The notes below the pieces were generated by a model. The model saw only the letters and a list, made by a program, of their open reading frames with translations. It did no database searches and was not told the origin of the DNA. The position numbers were made by a program, and so were the translations under genes. This document shows positions 4,374 through 51,269 of a stretch of 64,000 nt of DNA, in pieces. Position 1 is the stretch's first letter; each line of letters begins with the position of its first letter. Where the stretch lies: the NCBI RefSeq assembly GCF_056746865.1, contig NZ_CM163382.1; one strand, given 5' to 3'.

Positions 4374-7034
4374 ATGAGTCAGCGAGGACTGGAAGCACTA
4401 CTGCGACCAAAATCGATTGCGGTAATTGGCGCATCGATGAAACCCAATCGCGCAGGTTACCTGATGATGCGTAACCTGCTGGCGGGAGGCTTTAACGGAC
4501 CGGTACTCCCGGTGACGCCAGCCTGGAAAGCGGTGTTGGGTGTGTTGGCCTGGCCGGATATTGCCAGCTTGCCCTTTACACCCGACCTTGCGGTTTTATG
4601 TACTAATGCCAACCGTAATCTTGTTCTTCTGGAAGTGCTCGGCGAGAAAGGCTGTAAAACCTGCATTATTCTTTCCGCCCCGGCATCGCAACATGAAGAT
4701 CTCCGCGCCTGCGCCCTGCGCCATAACATGCGCCTGCTAGGACCAAACAGTCTGGGCTTACTGGCTCCCTGGCAAGGTCTGAATGCCAGCTTTTCGCCTG
4801 TGCCGATTAAACGCGGCAAGCTGGCGTTTATTTCGCAATCGGCTGCTGTCTCCAACACCATCCTCGACTGGGCGCAACAGCGTGAGATGGGCTTTTCCTA
4901 CTTTATTGCGCTCGGCGACAGCCTGGATATCGACGTTGATGAATTGCTCGACTATCTGGCGCGCGACAGTAAAACCAGCGCCATCCTGCTCTATCTCGAA
5001 CAGTTAAGCGACGCACGACGCTTTGTTTCGGCGGCCCGTAGTGCCTCTCGCAATAAACCGATTCTGGTGATTAAAAGCGGACGTAGCCCGGCGGCTCAAC
5101 GTCTGTTGAACACCACGGCAGGAATGGATCCGGCGTGGGATGCGGCTATTCAGCGTGCCGGTTTGTTGCGGGTACAGGATACTCACGAGCTGTTTTCGGC
5201 GGTGGAAACCCTCAGCCATATGCGCCCGCTGCGTGGCGACCGGCTGATGATTATCAGCAACGGTGCTGCGCCTGCCGCGCTGGCGCTGGATGCCTTATGG
5301 TCACGCAATGGCAAGCTGGCAACGCTAAGCGAAGAAACCTGCCAGAAACTGCGCGATGCACTGCCAGAACATGTGGCAATCTCTAACCCGCTCGATCTAC
5401 GCGATGACGCCAGCAGTGAGCACTATATTAAAACGCTGGATATTCTGCTCCACAGCCAGGATTTTGACGCGCTGATGGTTATTCATTCGCCCAGCGCCGC
5501 TGCTCCCGCAACAGAAAGTGCGCAAGCATTAATTGAAGCGGTAAAGCATCATCCCCGCAGCAAGTATGTTTCTCTGCTGACGAACTGGTGTGGCGAGTAC
5601 TCCTCGCAAGAGGCACGACGATTATTCAGTGAAGCCGGGCTGCCGACCTATCGCACGCCGGAAGGAACCATCACTGCTTTTATGCATATGGTGGAGTACC
5701 GGCGTAATCAGAAGCAACTACGCGAAACGCCGGCGTTGCCCAGCAATCTGACCTCCAATACCGCAGAAGCGCATCTTCTGTTGCAACAGGCGATTGCCGA
5801 AGGGGCTACGTCGCTTGATACCCATGAGGTTCAGCCCATCCTGCAAGCGTATGGCATGAACACGCTCCCCACCTGGATTGCCAGCGATAGCACCGAAGCG
5901 GTGCATATTGCCGAACAGATTGGTTATCCGGTGGCGCTGAAATTGCGTTCGCCGGATATTCCACATAAATCGGAAGTTCAGGGCGTCATGCTCTACCTGC
6001 GTACAGCTAATGAAGTCCAGCAAGCGGCAAACGCTATTTTCGATCGCGTAAAAATGGCCTGGCCGCAGGCGCGGATCCACGGCCTGTTAGTGCAAAGTAT
6101 GGCTAACCGTGCTGGCGCTCAGGAGTTGCGGGTTGTGGTTGAGTACGATCCGGTTTTCGGGCCGTTGATCATGCTGGGCGAAGGCGGTGTGGAGTGGCGT
6201 CCTGAAGATCAAGCCGTCGTCGCGTTACCACCGCTGAACATGAACCTGGCCCGCTATCTGGTTATTCAGGGGATCAAAAGTAAAAAGATTCGTGCGCGCA
6301 GTGCGCTACGCCCATTGGATGTTGCAGGCTTGAGCCAGCTTCTGGTGCAGGTTTCCAACTTGATTGTCGATTGCCCGGAAATTCAACGTCTGGACATTCA
6401 TCCTTTGCTGGCTTCTGGCAGTGAATTTACCGCGCTGGACGTCACGCTGGATATCGCGCCGTTTGAAGGCGATAACGAGAGCCGGCTGGCAGTGCGCCCT
6501 TATCCACATCAGCTGGAAGAGTGGGTAGAATTGAAAAACGGTGAACGCTGCTTGTTCCGCCCGATTTTGCCAGAAGATGAGCCACAACTTCAGCAGTTCA
6601 TTTCGCGAGTCACCAAAGAAGATCTTTATTACCGCTACTTTAGCGAGATCAACGAATTTACCCATGAAGATTTAGCCAACATGACGCAGATCGACTACGA
6701 TCGGGAAATGGCGTTTGTAGCGGTACGACGTATTGATCAAACGGAAGAGATCCTCGGCGTCACGCGTGCGATCTCCGACCCTGATAACATCGATGCCGAA
6801 TTTGCCGTGCTGGTTCGCTCGGATCTCAAAGGGTTAGGCTTAGGTCGACGCTTAATGGAAAAGTTGATTACCTATACGCGAGATCACGGACTGCAACGTC
6901 TGAATGGTATTACGATGCCAAACAATCGTGGCATGGTGGCGCTGGCCCGCAAGCTCGGGTTTAACGTTGATATCCAGCTCGAAGAGGGGATCGTTGGGCT
7001 TACGCTAAATCTTGCCCAGCGCGAGGAATCATGA
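4374..7034 (+). CDS. patZ: protein lysine acetyltransferase PatZ/YfiQ (acyl-CoA synthetase-like + GNAT)
   Basis: 886-aa ORF, CoA-binding/ATP-grasp-like N-terminal part and C-terminal GNAT region; matches K-12 size and position. Confidence 0.9.
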   Translation: MSQRGLEALLRPKSIAVIGASMKPNRAGYLMMRNLLAGGFNGPVLPVTPAWKAVLGVLAWPDIASLPFTPDLAVLCTNANRNLVLLEVLGEKGCKTCIILSAPASQHEDLRACALRHNMRLLGPNSLGLLAPWQGLNASFSPVPIKRGKLAFISQSAAVSNTILDWAQQREMGFSYFIALGDSLDIDVDELLDYLARDSKTSAILLYLEQLSDARRFVSAARSASRNKPILVIKSGRSPAAQRLLNTTAGMDPAWDAAIQRAGLLRVQDTHELFSAVETLSHMRPLRGDRLMIISNGAAPAALALDALWSRNGKLATLSEETCQKLRDALPEHVAISNPLDLRDDASSEHYIKTLDILLHSQDFDALMVIHSPSAAAPATESAQALIEAVKHHPRSKYVSLLTNWCGEYSSQEARRLFSEAGLPTYRTPEGTITAFMHMVEYRRNQKQLRETPALPSNLTSNTAEAHLLLQQAIAEGATSLDTHEVQPILQAYGMNTLPTWIASDSTEAVHIAEQIGYPVALKLRSPDIPHKSEVQGVMLYLRTANEVQQAANAIFDRVKMAWPQARIHGLLVQSMANRAGAQELRVVVEYDPVFGPLIMLGEGGVEWRPEDQAVVALPPLNMNLARYLVIQGIKSKKIRARSALRPLDVAGLSQLLVQVSNLIVDCPEIQRLDIHPLLASGSEFTALDVTLDIAPFEGDNESRLAVRPYPHQLEEWVELKNGERCLFRPILPEDEPQLQQFISRVTKEDLYYRYFSEINEFTHEDLANMTQIDYDREMAFVAVRRIDQTEEILGVTRAISDPDNIDAEFAVLVRSDLKGLGLGRRLMEKLITYTRDHGLQRLNGITMPNNRGMVALARKLGFNVDIQLEEGIVGLTLNLAQREES

Positions 7035-45831: not shown

Positions 45832-46047
45832 ATGAAAACCAGTGCAGACAGTAACGATGCTTTTCCCGAAAGCGGCAACGTGCGTATGCGGCAGGTAGTC
45901 CAGTTTCTGGCGATGAGTGAATCGTCGGTTTACCGCCTGATTAAAAACACCGACTTTCCCCGCCCCGTCCACCTCTCTTCCCGACTGGTGGTCTTCGATG
46001 CTGCTGAAATCCGTCAGTGGCAACAGCGCCGCGCCGCCATCCGTTAA
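45832..46047 (+). CDS. alpA: AlpA-family phage transcriptional regulator (HTH)
   Basis: 71-aa ORF with RMRQVVQFLAMSESSVYRLIKNTDFPRPV helix-turn-helix typical of AlpA. Confidence 0.85.
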   Translation: MKTSADSNDAFPESGNVRMRQVVQFLAMSESSVYRLIKNTDFPRPVHLSSRLVVFDAAEIRQWQQRRAAIR

Positions 46048-46082
46048 TCCACGCTCAGGGATGAGCCGACTGATACCCCGTC

Positions 46083-48152
46083 ATGAAACGCGCCCCTTTT
46101 CTCTGTAAGCAGTCTCCGGACCGCACGCTCGAAGTGGTGATCCTTGCCGGAAGCCTGGCATGGGAGACCTCACACGTGTGGCGAAAAGATCCCGACCGGG
46201 AAGATGATGTTCCCCCGATGGTACTCGGCCCGGATGAACTGGCCGATCTGAGCAATCTGACCATTATCAGGCCCGACACGCTCTACGTCCGGGTACTTCG
46301 CACCGGCGATATCAGTGAAGAAGAGCTGCTGAAAATTGCCGTAAAACTGGCGCACGCGGGCGTGCAGATGGCCCGGCTGATGACCCCTGACGGTGAGTTA
46401 CTGGAGAACTGGACCGGACAGCTTGAACGCCTGCGACAGGAAAGACCTTCTGACATCCTGCCGGATCACTTCCGCCTCGATGAAGAAGCACTGTGGTTTG
46501 ATAAGCTCACCGAACGGCGCGACGGTGAAAGCGATGTCCAGCCCCAGCGCATCTGTTCCCCTCTGCGCGTCACTGCCATCACCTGCGACAGCCATGACGG
46601 CAGCTATGGCCGCCTGCTGGAATGGCACACCACCACCGGGCAATTGCGGCGCTGGGCCATGCCGATGGCGATGCTCAGCGGCAACGGCGAGGAGCTGAGG
46701 CGCATTCTGCTGGAGAACGGCCTGACCTATATCTCCACCCGCCCTGCCCTGCGCAGTCTGCTGTGCGAATATATCTCGCGGTCACTCCCCGGACGCCGGG
46801 TCACCTGCGCGGAGAAAACCGGCTGGCACAACGGCGTGTACGTGCTGCCGGATGAGGTTATCGGTCCCGATGGCGACAACGTCATTCTCCAGGGCAGCCA
46901 CTACCTGACTGGCGGCTTTGCACAATCCGGTACGCTGGCAGAGTGGCAGGAGCAGGTCGCCGCGCTCTGTGCAGGCAATTCACGGCTGGTCTTTGCCGTC
47001 TGCTGTGCGCTGGCCGCCCCGCTGCTGCGCCTGACAGGAACGGGCGGCGGAGGCTTTCATCTGCGCGGTGAGTCCACTGACGGTAAGACCACGGTGATGA
47101 AAGTGGCCGCTTCCGTCTGTGGCGGGACGGATTACTGGCACTCCTGGCGGGCCACCGGGAATGCGCTGGAAGGAATTGCCAGCCGCCACAACGATGCCCT
47201 GCTGCCACTTGATGAACTGCGCGAAGTGGACCCGCGTGAGGCCGGGATGATTGCCTATATGCTGGCGAACGGACAGGGCAAGGGGCGCGCCCGCACCGAT
47301 GGCGAAGTGCGTAACCGCAGGCACTGGACGCTGCTGCTGTTCTCCACCGGGGAGCTGTCGCTGGCGGAACACACCGAATGCGCCGGGGAGCGCCTCTACG
47401 CCGGGATGGACGTGCGCATGGTACAAATCCCCAGCGACACCGGGCAGCATGGTTCGTTTGAGCAGTTGCACGGGTTTGCCAGCGGCCAGCAGTTCGCCGA
47501 TACTCTCTGCGACCGGGTGGCCCGCTTCCACGGCACCGCCTTTCGTGCCTGGCTGGCCTTCCTCACCAGCGACCTGGACGCCAGCACCACGCTGGCGAGA
47601 GAGTTACTTCGCCGCTACCAGACCGCCCTGATGCCGGACAACGCCGGAAACCAGGTGCAGCGCATCGTGGCCCGTTTTGCCCTGCTGGCGGTGGCCGGGG
47701 AGATAGCGACACTGAACGGTATCACGGGCTGGCAGGAAGGCTCGGCGTATGGGGCGGTGCAGATCTGCCTTCACGCCTGGCTGAACGAGCGCGGCCATAT
47801 TGCCAACCAGGAAGATGAAGGCGTGCTGGCGCAGATCAAGCGGTTCATTACCGCGCACCAGTACAGCCGCTTTGCCTCGTGGGATGGCCCGGACCGCCCG
47901 CTGAATATGGCAGGCTTTCGCCGGGTGGAAAAAGATCCGCTGACGGGCGAGGAACACACGCTGTTCTTCATCCTGCCTGAGGGCTGGCGGGAAATATGCC
48001 GGGGATTCAGTCCTGCCAGAGCGGCCAGATTATGCCAGGAAGCGGAATGCCTGCTGCCCGGCAGCGACGGGAAATACCAGTCGCAGGTTCGCCTGCCGGA
48101 GATCGGCAAAGCCAGAGTCTACCGCCTCACCTCCCGCATCCTCAGTATCTGA
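46083..48152 (+). CDS. P4 alpha-like primase/helicase-type replication protein (P-loop NTPase C-terminal half)
   Basis: 689-aa ORF, Walker A GESTDGKTTV, position after alpA as in P4-like and PICI elements; GC-rich unlike the cargo. Confidence 0.75.
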   Translation: MKRAPFLCKQSPDRTLEVVILAGSLAWETSHVWRKDPDREDDVPPMVLGPDELADLSNLTIIRPDTLYVRVLRTGDISEEELLKIAVKLAHAGVQMARLMTPDGELLENWTGQLERLRQERPSDILPDHFRLDEEALWFDKLTERRDGESDVQPQRICSPLRVTAITCDSHDGSYGRLLEWHTTTGQLRRWAMPMAMLSGNGEELRRILLENGLTYISTRPALRSLLCEYISRSLPGRRVTCAEKTGWHNGVYVLPDEVIGPDGDNVILQGSHYLTGGFAQSGTLAEWQEQVAALCAGNSRLVFAVCCALAAPLLRLTGTGGGGFHLRGESTDGKTTVMKVAASVCGGTDYWHSWRATGNALEGIASRHNDALLPLDELREVDPREAGMIAYMLANGQGKGRARTDGEVRNRRHWTLLLFSTGELSLAEHTECAGERLYAGMDVRMVQIPSDTGQHGSFEQLHGFASGQQFADTLCDRVARFHGTAFRAWLAFLTSDLDASTTLARELLRRYQTALMPDNAGNQVQRIVARFALLAVAGEIATLNGITGWQEGSAYGAVQICLHAWLNERGHIANQEDEGVLAQIKRFITAHQYSRFASWDGPDRPLNMAGFRRVEKDPLTGEEHTLFFILPEGWREICRGFSPARAARLCQEAECLLPGSDGKYQSQVRLPEIGKARVYRLTSRILSI

Positions 48153-48824: not shown

Positions 48825-49811
48825 ATGGTTAAAATTCACATTTTAGATGCCGGACATGGTGATTGCTTGTTAGTAGACTGCGATGGTGTCAAATTGTTAA
48901 TTGACGCTGGCCCAAGTACATTTAGGTATAGAAAAAAAATTTCAGCCAAGTTAGCTGAACTTCTGAATGGCGAGTCTGTTGATATCGCTTTTGTAACTCA
49001 CAATGATGATGACCATATCGGTGGTTTCAAATACCTAATTGAAAATAAAATAAACATCAAGAGATTTGTATTCAATAGTTTATCTAACATTAAACATGTA
49101 ATAAAGAATTCAAGCAATAAAATATCGACCAAACAAGATATAAATCTTGATAGAATAGTGAAAGATGGAAGTTTTGTCTTTTCGACACTAACTTCAGATG
49201 ACTCTCCTATTTTAATCAGAAATATAAAAATAACACCTATTACTCCTTCAAAAAATATCCTTTTAAAATATTTAGAACAACAAGAGCGTAAAAACACAGA
49301 AATTAAAATATCATCTTCATCTGAAAAATATAGTATTAAAGAAGCACTGCAGTTGCTAAGCAATGGAAATGATATGTTTGTAAAGGATCCATCGGCAACT
49401 AATAAAACCAGTTTATCATTTATGATTGAGTATGGGAATTTTTGTGGATTATTCCTTGGTGATGCACACGAAGAAGACATCTACTCATATATGGCTAATC
49501 ATTGTGCCAATAGAAAAATATCATTTAACGTTGTTAAGTTAGCACATCATGGTAGTGAAAAAAACACGAGTTCACGGTTATTGAAGTTAATTGGTACAAC
49601 AGAATATATCATATGTGCGAATAAAACCAAGCATAATCATCCAAATAATTTAACTCTTGCAAGAATTTTAATACATGAACAAGAACCTAAAATTCATATG
49701 AGTAGCAGCAATCAGGAGATAATAAATTTACTCAATCAAATAAATTTATTAGGCTTCGGCATTACTGCAACCCATTCTGAAAATGGAGTTAATACTTTAA
49801 TCTATGAGTAG
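48825..49811 (+). CDS. metallo-beta-lactamase-fold protein, ComEC-like (putative nuclease/hydrolase)
   Basis: 328-aa ORF: ILDAGHGDCLLVDCDGVKLLIDAG start, THNDDDHIGG metal-binding-like motif, AHHGSEKNTS motif; very AT-rich. Confidence 0.7.
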   Translation: MVKIHILDAGHGDCLLVDCDGVKLLIDAGPSTFRYRKKISAKLAELLNGESVDIAFVTHNDDDHIGGFKYLIENKINIKRFVFNSLSNIKHVIKNSSNKISTKQDINLDRIVKDGSFVFSTLTSDDSPILIRNIKITPITPSKNILLKYLEQQERKNTEIKISSSSEKYSIKEALQLLSNGNDMFVKDPSATNKTSLSFMIEYGNFCGLFLGDAHEEDIYSYMANHCANRKISFNVVKLAHHGSEKNTSSRLLKLIGTTEYIICANKTKHNHPNNLTLARILIHEQEPKIHMSSSNQEIINLLNQINLLGFGITATHSENGVNTLIYE

Positions 49812-51269
49812 AAAAAATGCTGTAAAAATAAAAGTCAATGATTCGGAATCAAGTGGCTATTTTTTCAAAGCAAGCTCCAAGGATGATTCTTTTGTAATTT
49901 CATCCAAGCACGGCCTTTGTTCTAGACAGTCAGATTGTGAAGAATTTCTTGATAATGTTCAGAATTGTTGCCGTTTATGCACTCAAGATTTAAATATTGA
50001 CAATATATCTTTTGAAATTGAAGGAAATAAGAAGCTAAAGCCAATAAGTTATTTCAGTCTTGAAAACAAAGATATTGTCATCACCAAAGTGGATGGGGTA
50101 TCTAATTATCCTTTAAGGATAGGAAAGATAGAAAAAGAAAAGTATTATACTTATGGTTACAAGAGTAAATGTGATAAGCCTGGCAGAATTTTATTAAATG
50201 AGCCAGATTTATTAGATGGGATTTGTTATTTCAATATATGTTCCGATGCAACACCTGAGTTGATTGAGAAAAGTGAAGAATATTATGGAATTTCAGGTTC
50301 ATTAGTTTTTGATTCTCCAGAAAAAGATGTTTTAACCGCACATGCAGTAATAACAACTAATGAAACCAATAATGACTTAGGTTCAGAAATATTACATGAT
50401 ATTGATTTCAAAGAAATTAATAACTTTTTCGGCTGTGAAGTATTCTTGGGTAAAAAACTCCAATTTCAACTAGATGATACTTTTAGTAAAAATTTTTCAA
50501 AGATTGGAGAAGTGCTTGTTAGCGACAAACTCCAAATTGAAATATTTATTTCATCTTATAAAGGTATACCATATTTTAATTTGACACCAATTGCTGATGC
50601 ATTAATTCAAAGTAAGTTTTATTATGTTTTTGGAAATGTTAGTAGAAGTGATCATATAAATATAATCGCTGCATCAAACATTATACTCAACAAATCTCAT
50701 TTAGAACCAGCTAATAAATTATTAACTAGCAAATTAACTGAATCGATATTATCAGCACCTCATATTTATTCCACTAGCATTGATGATAATAATTATCATC
50801 ATATTCATTTTAAACAAATGACTTCTGGTGATATTGAGCTCATAATATCATGTTATGGTGGAGGAGATGATCTTCCTAAAGATATAAATGGCACTTTAAC
50901 TGAGTTGTTACACAATATAAATACTTATAACTTAAATAAAAATTCAATAATTGAGAGGTCTTTTCTTAATCAAAAATTTACAGATGCACAATGCGAAATT
51001 TTATATGAGATTTTTTTGAGCGATTAACTGATTCAATCGACAGAATTTCATTATTGCATGTAATTCCTTTGGACCATTATTTAATAAAAGATAAATCAGA
51101 AATTAAAAATGAAATTATTACCATTGTTGAGAAAGCGTGTCAAGAATTAGACAGCAACATTTTAGATTATCTTGAGCATGGAATATCTATAAATCTATTA
51201 ATATTTCCAACTAATAATAAAGATGAATTATCAGGGTTAATGCAAAGGTTGATAAATAATTATGAATGA
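49804..51269 (+). CDS. protein with trypsin-like serine protease-type motifs; reading frame interrupted at a T7 run (ORFs 49804..51027 and 51054..51269 probably one gene)
   Basis: Start overlaps the MBL gene stop by 8 nt (ATGAGTAG); motifs SSKHGLC, NKDIVITKV, GISGSLVF; frame 1 stops at 51027 while frame 0 stays open from the T7 run (51011-51017) to 51269 and has no ATG or RBS of its own. Confidence 0.6.

What the first reader, a model, noticed from the sequence alone, without database searches (positions are those of the whole stretch)
51005..51060. Protease-like gene also interrupted at a homopolymer (T7, U UUU UUG): the 71-aa ORF is probably its C-terminal extension
The protease-like ORF ends ...tat gag att ttt ttg agc gat taa at 51027. 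Frame 0 is open from the T7 run (51011-51017) through 51269 and encodes the 71-aa ORF, which has no ATG (TTG only) and no RBS, and whose stop overlaps the helicase start (ATGAATGA). One extra T would give a single protein of about 490 aa coupled to the helicase. Two adjacent genes each needing +1 nt in a 7-nt homopolymer points to homopolymer under-calling in the assembly or parallel decay; the T-run heptamer is also slippery-type.
Basis: seen in the sequence. Interest (0 to 1): 0.55.

Follow-up and report, generated by a model that had tools for sequence, protein, structure and literature searches.

The report
Frameshifted protease-HamA gene of Hachiman defence
The "protease-like" gene and the 71-aa ORF after it are one gene, the protease-HamA of a known three-gene Hachiman (HamMAB) anti-phage system, broken by a real, inherited loss of one T from a T8 run; this is ordinary decay of a defence gene, not an assembly error or a recoding signal.

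Summary
T7 lies at 51011-51017, the 407-aa ORF stops at 51025-51027, and the other frame is open only from 51009 to 51269, where its stop overlaps the helicase start.

Nineteen homologues (37-57% identity; Vibrio, Aeromonas, Morganella and others) run uninterrupted across the junction. E. coli genomes also carry a T8 allele that encodes a 488-aa protein.

The operon is HamMAB (Hachiman-MBL), described in 2025. It consists of the MBL pronuclease HamM, a trypsin-like protease fused to HamA, and the helicase HamB.

Assembly under-calling is excluded. About 122 of 131 complete E. coli genomes carrying the locus have T7, and the 407-aa product is indexed in 13,219 collection blocks against 413 for the 488-aa form.

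In every clean locus I read, T7 travels with the A7 frameshift in HamB and with a synonymous C at 49073. T8 travels with A8 and T49073. So there are two stable haplotypes, and the window's is derived and doubly frameshifted.

Programmed frameshifting has no support: the arrangement is not conserved and there is no downstream RNA structure. Phase variation is argued against by the strict linkage.

The truncation removes two predicted core strands of the HamA domain, so the copy is most likely inactive. Interest is low.

The parts
48825..49811 (+). hamM: MBL-fold pronuclease, 328 aa, intact. Its stop overlaps the next gene's start (ATGAGTAG).
   Evidence: PADLOC matches LmuA-type MBL at 2.9e-61, RTasMBL at 1.3e-48 and Avs1a at 2.4e-35. 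NCBIfam matches Avs1a at 3.1e-42, below its curated cut-off. PGAP names it ComEC/Rec2 or MBL fold metallo-hydrolase. It is conserved as the first gene in the Vibrio, Aeromonas and Morganella loci.
49073..49073 (+). Synonymous SNP (TTC in the window, TTT in intact alleles) that marks the frameshifted haplotype.
   Evidence: Every T7/A7 locus has C and every T8/A8 locus has T, including the more diverged intact alleles L008 and L010. C is therefore the derived state.
49804..51027 (+). 5' part of the protease-hamA gene. The 407-aa ORF holds the trypsin-like protease domain (about residues 1-215) and the first part of the HamA/DUF1837 domain, followed by three out-of-frame codons (L-S-D) and a stop.
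   Evidence: Alignment A1 conserves H36 and D90 (at least 90% of sequences) and S164 (invariant). The Foldseek matches listed are nearly all chymotrypsin-fold proteases. The family profile matches PDB 9wh1, a 'HamA C-terminal domain-containing protein', at E=6.6e-18 over positions 5-484.
51011..51017 (+). T7 tract: the site of the 1-nt deletion (ancestral T8: ATT TTT TTT GAG = I-F-F-E).
   Evidence: Complete E. coli genomes split as T8 in 4, T7 in about 122 and T6 in 3.
51009..51269 (+). 3' part of protease-hamA in the shifted frame. It encodes the last 83 residues of the 488-aa protein. The mechanically called 71-aa TTG ORF (51054-51269) lies inside it. Its stop overlaps the hamB start.
   Evidence: It aligns with the C-terminus of all homologues, including the invariant residues P469, N471 and E475. 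PADLOC gives a weak HamA1 match at positions 244-303 of 310, E=0.0028. The AF2 model places strands 414-422 and 461-470 and helices 434-447, 451-456 and 475-487 here.
51262..52464 (+). hamB, N-terminal part (400 aa).
   Evidence: PADLOC HamB1 model PDLC00176, positions 4-400 of 845, E=1e-89.
52448..52454 (+). A7 tract: the second 1-nt deletion (ancestral A8: GAA AAA AAA GTA). The zero frame now reads GA A_AAA_AAG.
   Evidence: The 841-aa A8 product is on 178 contigs and in 357 index blocks.
52422..53786 (+). hamB, C-terminal part in the shifted frame. The frame is open from 52422; the called ORF is 52503-53786 (427 aa).
   Evidence: PADLOC HamB1 model PDLC00176, positions 413-842 of 845, E=2.6e-92.

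Best explanation
Positions 48825-53786 are a low-GC, three-gene HamMAB (Hachiman-MBL) anti-phage operon carried on a P4-like satellite in E. coli.

In intact systems, the helicase HamB holds a trypsin-like protease fused to a nuclease-dead HamA domain. When HamB senses DNA it releases the protease, which cleaves the MBL pronuclease HamM and switches on its DNase activity.

In this window the protease-hamA gene has lost one T from an ancestral T8 run (ATT TTT TTT GAG became ATT TTT TTG AG). Translation therefore ends after 407 residues, and the last 83 codons lie in the other frame. The '71-aa ORF' is what a gene caller sees of that tail.

A second 1-nt loss, A8 to A7, splits hamB. Both deletions and one synonymous SNP define a single derived haplotype that is stably inherited and now far more common in sequenced E. 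coli than the intact one.

The most likely cause is replication slippage at the longest homopolymers of an AT-rich gene. The mutations were then kept because loss of a costly, toxic abortive-infection system is neutral or beneficial.

Shown here: the gene's identity, its continuity in homologues, the existence of the intact allele, the linkage, and the direction of change. Inferred: that the truncated protein is non-functional, and that selection or relaxation explains the haplotype's spread.
For: 1. Continuity. Nineteen homologues at 37-57% identity and 378-497 aa align end to end with the T8 translation. The junction falls inside the conserved CExLYExLF motif.

2. Conserved operon. MBL (328-329 aa), a ~485-aa protein and an 840-842-aa HamB, with overlapping stop and start codons, occur in Vibrio splendidus, Aeromonas veronii and Morganella morganii.

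3. Intact E. coli allele. T8+A8 encodes 328+488+841 aa at the same chromosomal site. The 488-aa protein is on 240 contigs and the 841-aa protein on 178.

4. Not an artefact. In 131 complete genomes the tract is T8 in 4, T7 in about 122 and T6 in 3. A8 occurs in the same 4 genomes as T8. Index blocks number 13,219 for the 407-aa form and 413 for the 488-aa form.

5. Linkage. All 11 T7 or T6 loci read, plus the window, have A7 and C49073. All 16 T8 loci have T49073. Fifteen of them have A8; the exception is L009, a draft with several homopolymer deletions.

6. Direction. Outgroups are in frame, and the diverged intact alleles L008 and L010 carry T49073.

7. Identity. HamB matches PADLOC at 1e-89 and 2.6e-92. 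The family profile matches PDB 9wh1/9whk/9whu at E=6.6e-18. The N-terminal domain has the protease fold. The mechanism comes from bioRxiv 10.1101/2025.07.28.667249 and 10.1101/2025.09.03.673762.

8. Damage. The truncation removes two predicted beta-strands and three helices of the HamA domain. It also removes the position equivalent to K. pneumoniae HamA Y439. That residue belongs to a HamA-HamB interface triple mutant that abrogated phage protection.

9. Both papers report toxicity on expression. Other independent disruptions are seen: an 11-bp deletion in L025, IS insertions in H1, H2, L031 and L033, and a T8-to-T7 change in Morganella hamB.
Against: No expression or phenotype data exist for the T7/A7 allele, so loss of function is an inference.

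Both frameshift sites happen to be in-phase X_XXY_YYZ heptamers (U_UUU_UUG and A_AAA_AAG). Trace amounts of full-length protein from ribosomal or transcriptional slippage therefore cannot be excluded.

hamM remains intact, and the frameshifted haplotype is about 30-fold more frequent than the intact one. That could reflect clonal sampling bias, but also some retained benefit.

Tract length is not completely fixed: three complete genomes have T6.
Confidence: 0.88

Rival explanations
1. Assembly artefact: the true sequence is T8 (and A8), and the homopolymers were under-called.
For: Homopolymer errors do occur in some assemblies of this locus. SCU-482 (L004) has 79 mostly homopolymer differences within the operon. 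L009 has several 1-nt homopolymer deletions.
Against: An identical T7 is found in about 122 of 131 complete genomes from many laboratories and platforms. The 407-aa product is in 13,219 index blocks, including Logan assemblies of public sequencing runs. T7 is strictly linked to a substitution at 49073, which homopolymer miscalling cannot produce.
Confidence: 0.02
2. Programmed recoding: the T7 allele makes full-length protease-HamA by -1 ribosomal frameshifting on U_UUU_UUG or by transcriptional slippage, and HamB by the same means on A_AAA_AAG. The result would be a low, regulated dose of a toxic system.
For: Both sites are in-phase slippery heptamers, and a -1 shift restores the ancestral frame exactly. 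A_AAA_AAG is among the most efficient E. coli motifs when stimulators are present (PMC4066793).
Against: The frameshifted arrangement is not conserved. Every homologue and the sister E. coli allele are in frame.

The T7 state is very recent, with one SNP of divergence across the operon, so no signal could have evolved around it.

The RNA downstream folds no better than shuffles (z = -0.8, +1.3 and +0.2), and no SD-like stimulator lies upstream.

Heptamers without a stimulator give only 2-10 times a 0.055% background. Both proteins would be needed at once.
Confidence: 0.04
3. Phase variation: the T and A tracts are contingency repeats that switch the defence system on and off by slipped-strand mispairing.
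For: Tract-length polymorphism (T6, T7, T8; A7, A8) exists among nearly identical alleles. On/off switching of a toxic defence system would be advantageous.
Against: T and A states are perfectly correlated with each other and with the 49073 SNP in all clean loci and in all 131 complete genomes. No T7/A8 or T8/A7 combination appears outside one error-prone draft. That pattern indicates descent, not switching.

Tracts of 7-8 A/T are short for efficient switching in a mismatch-repair-proficient E. coli (general knowledge, not tested here).
Confidence: 0.05
4. The 71-aa ORF is an independent small gene, or the second half of a functional split HamA, translated from its own TTG start.
For: Some annotations call it as a gene: 336 contigs, including UniRef B7N6L4_ECOLU.
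Against: It has a TTG start with no SD-like motif. PGAP does not call it in the T7 complete genome whose annotation I read. Its sequence is simply the C-terminus of a conserved single-chain domain. A product starting at TTG would lack residues 405-417 of the intact protein.
Confidence: 0.01

Closest known systems
HamMAB / Hachiman-MBL (nuclease-protease Hachiman): Pseudomonas fluorescens PflHamMAB (Tuck et al., bioRxiv 10.1101/2025.07.28.667249) and the Klebsiella pneumoniae system (Huang et al., bioRxiv 10.1101/2025.09.03.673762). The matching PDB entries 9wh1/9whk/9whu (528-aa chain) are probably the latter's structures, but I did not confirm that.
   Same: The gene order is the same: MBL pronuclease, then trypsin-like protease fused to a HamA/DUF1837 domain, then the HamB SF2 helicase. 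The family profile matches the solved 528-aa HamA-type chain at E=6.6e-18 across nearly its full length. The HamB and MBL homologies are shown.
   Different: The window's copy carries two 1-nt deletions, so protease-HamA is truncated at residue 404 and HamB is split into 400 and 427 aa. Sequence identity to the studied systems is low: the single E. coli sequence does not reach 9wh1 and only the profile does.
E. coli Liu-DS5 (= HamMAB), validated in NAR 2026 (PMC13069673; preprint 10.64898/2025.12.08.692795)
   Same: It is an E. coli operon of MBL-like protein, protease-HamA fusion and HamB helicase. It restricted 52 of 70 phages when driven from an araBAD promoter.
   Different: I could not check whether Liu-DS5 is the intact T8/A8 allele of this very locus, because its Table S5 is not held. 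The window in any case holds the frameshifted allele.
Canonical Hachiman HamAB (ECOR31; Tuck et al. 2024, PMC12278908)
   Same: A HamB helicase acts as sensor, paired with a DUF1837 HamA partner.
   Different: Canonical HamA is itself the nuclease (D-GExK motif) and has no protease domain or MBL partner. The 2025 papers report that the fusion forms have lost that motif. I did not test the motif in this protein.
dnaX / IS-element -1 programmed frameshift sites (X_XXY_YYZ heptamer plus stimulators)
   Same: U_UUU_UUG and A_AAA_AAG heptamers sit in the correct phase, and a -1 shift restores the long ORF.
   Different: There is no stimulatory structure and the arrangement is not conserved. The intact in-frame allele coexists in the same species.

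Membership tests
HamMAB (Hachiman-MBL) defence system | Three-gene operon in the order MBL nuclease, protease-HamA, HamB | tested here: met
   Seen in the window ORFs, the PGAP annotation, intact E. coli alleles and the Vibrio, Aeromonas and Morganella loci.
HamMAB (Hachiman-MBL) defence system | HamB-type SF2 helicase | tested here: met
   PADLOC HamB1 model PDLC00176: the N half covers positions 4-400 (E=1e-89) and the C half 413-842 of 845 (E=2.6e-92).
HamMAB (Hachiman-MBL) defence system | C-terminal HamA/DUF1837 domain in the middle protein | tested here: met
   Profile A1 against PDB 9wh1 ('HamA C-terminal domain-containing protein') gives E=6.6e-18 over 5-484. The single-sequence signals are weak: PADLOC HamA1 E=0.0028 for the tail and Pfam HamA in 1 of 20 members at 8.4e-3.
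HamMAB (Hachiman-MBL) defence system | N-terminal trypsin-like serine protease with a catalytic triad | tested here: met
   The AF2 model's N-terminal domain matches chymotrypsin-fold proteases (Foldseek probability 1.00). H36, D90 and S164 within G-x-S-G are invariant or nearly so. Pfam Trypsin_2 is only sub-threshold, in 5 of 20 members.
HamMAB (Hachiman-MBL) defence system | MBL-fold nuclease of the Avs1a/LmuA-associated type | tested here: met
   PADLOC LmuA 2.9e-61, RTasMBL 1.3e-48, Avs1a 2.4e-35. NCBIfam Avs1a 3.1e-42, below its curated cut-off.
HamMAB (Hachiman-MBL) defence system | [quoted passage not shown] | tested here: not met
   The window has T7 and A7 frameshifts, so this copy is a degenerate member. 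Intact alleles exist elsewhere.
HamMAB (Hachiman-MBL) defence system | Loss of the canonical HamA D-GExK nuclease motif | not tested
   The papers report this for fusion HamAs. I did not align this protein to ECOR31 HamA.
HamMAB (Hachiman-MBL) defence system | Protection against phage; protease cleavage of HamM | not testable with these tools
   Requires experiments.
Programmed -1 ribosomal frameshift site | In-phase X_XXY_YYZ slippery heptamer | tested here: met
   AUU UUU UUG gives U_UUU_UUG. GAA AAA AAG gives A_AAA_AAG.
Programmed -1 ribosomal frameshift site | Stimulatory element (downstream structure or upstream SD-like sequence) | tested here: not met
   Fold z-scores are -0.80, +1.29 and +0.22 against shuffles. 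No SD-like motif lies upstream.
Programmed -1 ribosomal frameshift site | Two-frame arrangement conserved among homologues | tested here: not met
   All homologues and the sister E. coli allele are single in-frame ORFs. Codons at the site in other genera are GTT TTG TTT GGT and similar.
Phase-variable contingency locus (simple-sequence repeat) | Tract length varies independently of flanking markers among close relatives | tested here: not met
   T6, T7 and T8 variants exist. However, T8 always occurs with A8 and T49073, and T7 or T6 always with A7 and C49073.
Homopolymer assembly artefact | The indel is confined to one or a few assemblies or platforms and is not linked to substitutions | tested here: not met
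   About 122 of 131 complete genomes and 13,219 index blocks share T7, and it is linked to the 49073 SNP.

The most novel reading that the evidence does not exclude
The doubly frameshifted T7/A7 haplotype might not be dead but attenuated. Spontaneous -1 ribosomal slippage or RNA-polymerase slippage at the two in-phase heptamers (U_UUU_UUG in protease-hamA, A_AAA_AAG in hamB) would yield trace amounts of both full-length proteins alongside intact HamM. That would keep a low-toxicity, low-level HamMAB response. Such a benefit, rather than clonal sampling alone, would then contribute to this haplotype being about 30 times more common than the intact one.
Probability: 0.04. Interest if true: 0.55.

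Novelty: new member of a known kind. Interest (0 to 1): 0.2.

Why it matters
The finding is mainly useful for annotation. The 407-aa 'hypothetical protein', the 71-aa ORF, the 'DEAD/DEAH box helicase' and the 'helicase-related protein' in thousands of E. coli assemblies are the remains of two genes of a HamMAB defence operon. They should be marked as frameshifted pseudogenes, and defence-system censuses should not count this locus as active.

It also provides a natural matched pair of alleles. They differ by two single-base indels and one synonymous SNP, so they could be used to measure the cost and benefit of HamMAB in its native host.

It illustrates how the longest homopolymers in AT-rich, horizontally acquired defence genes are the first places to break. 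It does not reveal a new mechanism.

Tried and rejected
- Pfam on the 488-aa protein found nothing, even at E<=10. On the 20-member alignment, only sub-threshold Trypsin_2 and HamA hits appeared.
- PADLOC and NCBIfam found no family for the full 488-aa protein.
- A single-sequence search of the PDB gave only a chance hit to a designed protein (9ugr, E=0.16). The profile was needed to reach 9wh1.
- Foldseek of the whole model against the PDB was dominated by protease-domain hits, so it said nothing about the C-terminal domain.
- RNA folding downstream of both tracts gave no structure better than shuffles.
- I looked for the efficiency of U_UUU_UUG in Sharma et al. 2014. The motif is not named in the text; only general ranges for heptamers without a stimulator were obtained.
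- I tried to verify whether the validated E. coli HamMAB 'Liu-DS5' is this locus. No supplementary tables are held.
- I took Morganella P0003 (378 aa) for a truncated homologue at first. The reading frame is in fact open back to an MSRKNAVKIK start, so it is only a gene-call start artefact.
- L004 (SCU-482) and L009 were set aside as error-prone assemblies.

Full report
**Observation**

The sequence at 51005-51027 reads tat gag att ttt ttg agc gat taa. The T7 run is at 51011-51017 and the stop at 51025-51027. It closes a 407-aa ORF that starts at 49804.

The other frame is closed by TGA at 51006-51008 and open from 51009 to 51269. The two frames therefore overlap for only 19 nt, and the T-run sits in that overlap.

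The listed 71-aa ORF (51054-51269) starts at TTG with no Shine-Dalgarno-like motif before it. Its stop overlaps the ATG of the next gene (ATGAATGA). Inserting one T gives a 488-aa protein.

**What the gene is**

The region 48825-53786 has about 29% GC, between flanks of about 60% GC. It sits next to an AlpA regulator and a DUF927 primase-like gene, beside srlA. That is the cargo position of a P4-like satellite (my reading of these neighbours; no integrase or att sites were checked).

The operon has three parts:
- The first gene (328 aa) is an MBL-fold protein. It resembles the MBL effectors of Lamassu, DRT and AVAST (PADLOC 2.9e-61, 1.3e-48 and 2.4e-35).
- The two ORFs after the 71-aa ORF are the two halves of a HamB helicase. 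They cover positions 4-400 and 413-842 of an 845-position PADLOC model (E=1e-89 and 2.6e-92).
- The middle protein has no Pfam, PADLOC or NCBIfam match as a single sequence.

A profile built from the middle protein's homologues matches a solved 528-aa chain named 'Anti-bacteriophage protein A/HamA C-terminal domain-containing protein' (PDB 9wh1, 9whk, 9whu). The match has E=6.6e-18 and covers positions 5-484.

The AlphaFold2 model (pLDDT 74) has an N-terminal chymotrypsin-fold domain (Foldseek probability 1.00). His36, Asp90 and Ser164 are conserved there.

Two 2025 preprints describe exactly this architecture as HamMAB, or Hachiman-MBL. HamB senses DNA and releases a trypsin-like protease fused to a nuclease-dead HamA. 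The protease cleaves two inhibitory loops of the MBL pronuclease HamM, which then degrades DNA. All three activities are needed, and expression is toxic. An E. coli HamMAB (Liu-DS5) restricted 52 of 70 phages.

**Is the 71-aa ORF the C-terminus?**

Yes. Twenty proteins matched the 488-aa query apart from the window's own 407-aa form. They include sequences from Vibrio, Aeromonas, Salinivibrio, Morganella and metagenomes. They are 37-57% identical, and all but the 378-aa Morganella call cover 97-100% of the query.

I aligned 19 of them. All are continuous through the junction, which lies within a conserved C-E-x-L-Y-E-x-L-F motif. The E. coli T8 translation CEILYEIFFERL fits this motif. Invariant residues (P469, N471, E475) lie in the tail.

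In Vibrio splendidus, Aeromonas veronii and Morganella morganii the operon is MBL (328-329 aa), a ~485-aa protein and HamB (840-842 aa). The middle gene's stop overlaps the HamB start in each. The 378-aa Morganella call is only a mis-placed start, because the frame is open back to MSRKNAVKIK.

**Artefact, switch or mutation?**

The locus is present in 131 of 5,426 complete E. coli genomes at 99% identity or more. Short diagnostic queries gave these tract lengths:

| Tract state | Complete genomes |
|---|---|
| T8 | 4 (A10, 2021CK-01784, CH4796, LSC52) |
| T7 | about 122 |
| T6 | 3 |

A8 occurs in exactly the same four genomes as T8.

In the large protein collection, the 407-aa, 400-aa and 427-aa products each occur on at least 1,000 contigs. 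The 488-aa protein is on 240 contigs and the 841-aa HamB on 178. Index blocks number 13,219, 413 and 357 for the 407-aa, 488-aa and 841-aa products.

I read 27 E. coli loci base by base (after setting aside the error-ridden SCU-482 assembly, L004). Every T7 or T6 locus has A7 and C at 49073. Every T8 locus has T at 49073, and all but one have A8. The exception is L009, an old draft with several homopolymer deletions.

Within the 5-kb operon, the window differs from the commonest intact alleles only by these three changes.

The more diverged intact alleles (L008, L010) and all outgroups show the in-frame state, and L008 and L010 carry T49073. So T8/A8/T49073 is ancestral and the window's haplotype is derived.

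A substitution linked to both indels cannot come from homopolymer miscalling. Strict linkage is also not what independent on/off switching would produce. The simplest reading is two real 1-nt deletions inherited by descent.

The intact operon has four 8-nt homopolymers, and two of them have contracted. In other genera the same codons are GTT TTG TTT GGT, ATT TTA TTT GGC and TTA TTG TTT GGT. The T8 run, and so the hotspot, is particular to the E. coli allele.

**Recoding?**

The zero-frame codons give U_UUU_UUG here and A_AAA_AAG in hamB. A -1 shift would restore each protein. Several results count against programmed recoding:
- The two-frame arrangement is not conserved.
- It is only about one SNP old.
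- The RNA downstream folds no better than shuffled sequence (z = -0.80, +1.29 and +0.22).
- No SD-like stimulator precedes the site.

In E. coli, heptamers without stimulators give only 2-10 times a 0.055% background (PMC4066793). A 7-nt run left by deleting one base from an 8-nt run forms an in-phase heptamer in two of the three possible phases, so the pattern is not remarkable. Trace read-through cannot be excluded, but programmed frameshifting has no support.

**Consequence (inferred)**

The 407-aa product keeps the protease domain. It loses strands 414-422 and 461-470 and helices 434-447, 451-456 and 475-487 of the HamA domain in the model.

In the K. pneumoniae structure, the DUF1837 domain is a central four-stranded sheet flanked by helices. 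HamA Y439 is part of a HamA-HamB interface triple mutant that significantly abrogated phage protection. By the profile alignment, Y439 maps six or seven residues after the break.

Termination at 51027 also uncouples hamB translation from the upstream gene. With HamB itself split between its two RecA-like halves, the system is most probably inactive.

Other independent lesions fit recurrent loss of a costly system:
- an 11-bp deletion in protease-hamA on a T8/A8 background (L025);
- an A5-to-A4 change in hamB of CH4796;
- IS1, IS5 and other insertions (H1, H2, L031, L033);
- a T8-to-T7 frameshift in Morganella hamB, a few codons from the E. coli site.

**Verdict**

Of its two proposed causes, decay is right and assembly under-calling is wrong.

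The feature is a frameshifted, very probably non-functional copy of a recently described defence system. Its value lies in annotation and in offering a natural intact/broken allele pair. It is not a new mechanism.

Noticed in passing
window 52448-52454 (hamB): The companion A7 frameshift reads GA A_AAA_AAG in the zero frame, which is the dnaX-type heptamer. A -1 shift would give exactly the 841-aa HamB of the A8 allele. No downstream structure was found (z=+0.22).
   Followed up: partly
L018 about 2595-2605, compared with L017 about 7294 (Morganella morganii hamB): One Morganella assembly has hamB split into 398 and 444 aa by a T8-to-T7 change (GAGTTTTTTTTATATC versus GAGTTTTTTTATATC). The break lies a few codons upstream of the E. 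coli break point, in the same linker between the two halves. It is either a parallel homopolymer frameshift or an assembly error.
   Followed up: partly
L025 about 2183-2193 (E. coli GCA_042145925.1): An independent 11-bp deletion splits protease-hamA into 220 and 252 aa on an otherwise intact T8/A8 allele.
   Followed up: partly
L002 (CH4796), equivalent to window 52048 and 52292: This T8/A8 genome carries a separate A5-to-A4 deletion in hamB and an N-to-I substitution. It is therefore intact at the two tracts studied here but broken elsewhere. It could be a real lesion or a long-read error.
   Followed up: no
E. coli EC1 (CP058574), PKF4 (CP156662; L003) and FCI48 (CM172719), equivalent to window 51011-51017: Three complete genomes of the frameshifted haplotype have T6 instead of T7. 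This is either further contraction in a pseudogene or homopolymer under-calling in those assemblies.
   Followed up: partly
window 45832-48152 and 53941-54420: The defence operon lies between AlpA plus a DUF927 primase-like gene on one side and a reverse-strand HTH gene on the other, directly beside srlA (54781). GC content drops from about 60% to about 29%. This is the cargo position of a P4-like satellite. In some genomes IS66 or other IS elements replace the upstream part (L028, L030, L032, L033).
   Followed up: partly
window 49804-49811 and 51262-51269: Both gene junctions of the operon are 8-nt overlaps (ATGAGTAG and ATGAATGA), which suggests translational coupling of hamM, protease-hamA and hamB. 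The frameshift ends translation 235 nt before the hamB start.
   Followed up: no
H1 (CP043406) and H2 (CP095510); L031 about 4892-6415: IS1 and IS5 insertions interrupt the operon in some genomes of the frameshifted haplotype, consistent with continuing decay.
   Followed up: no
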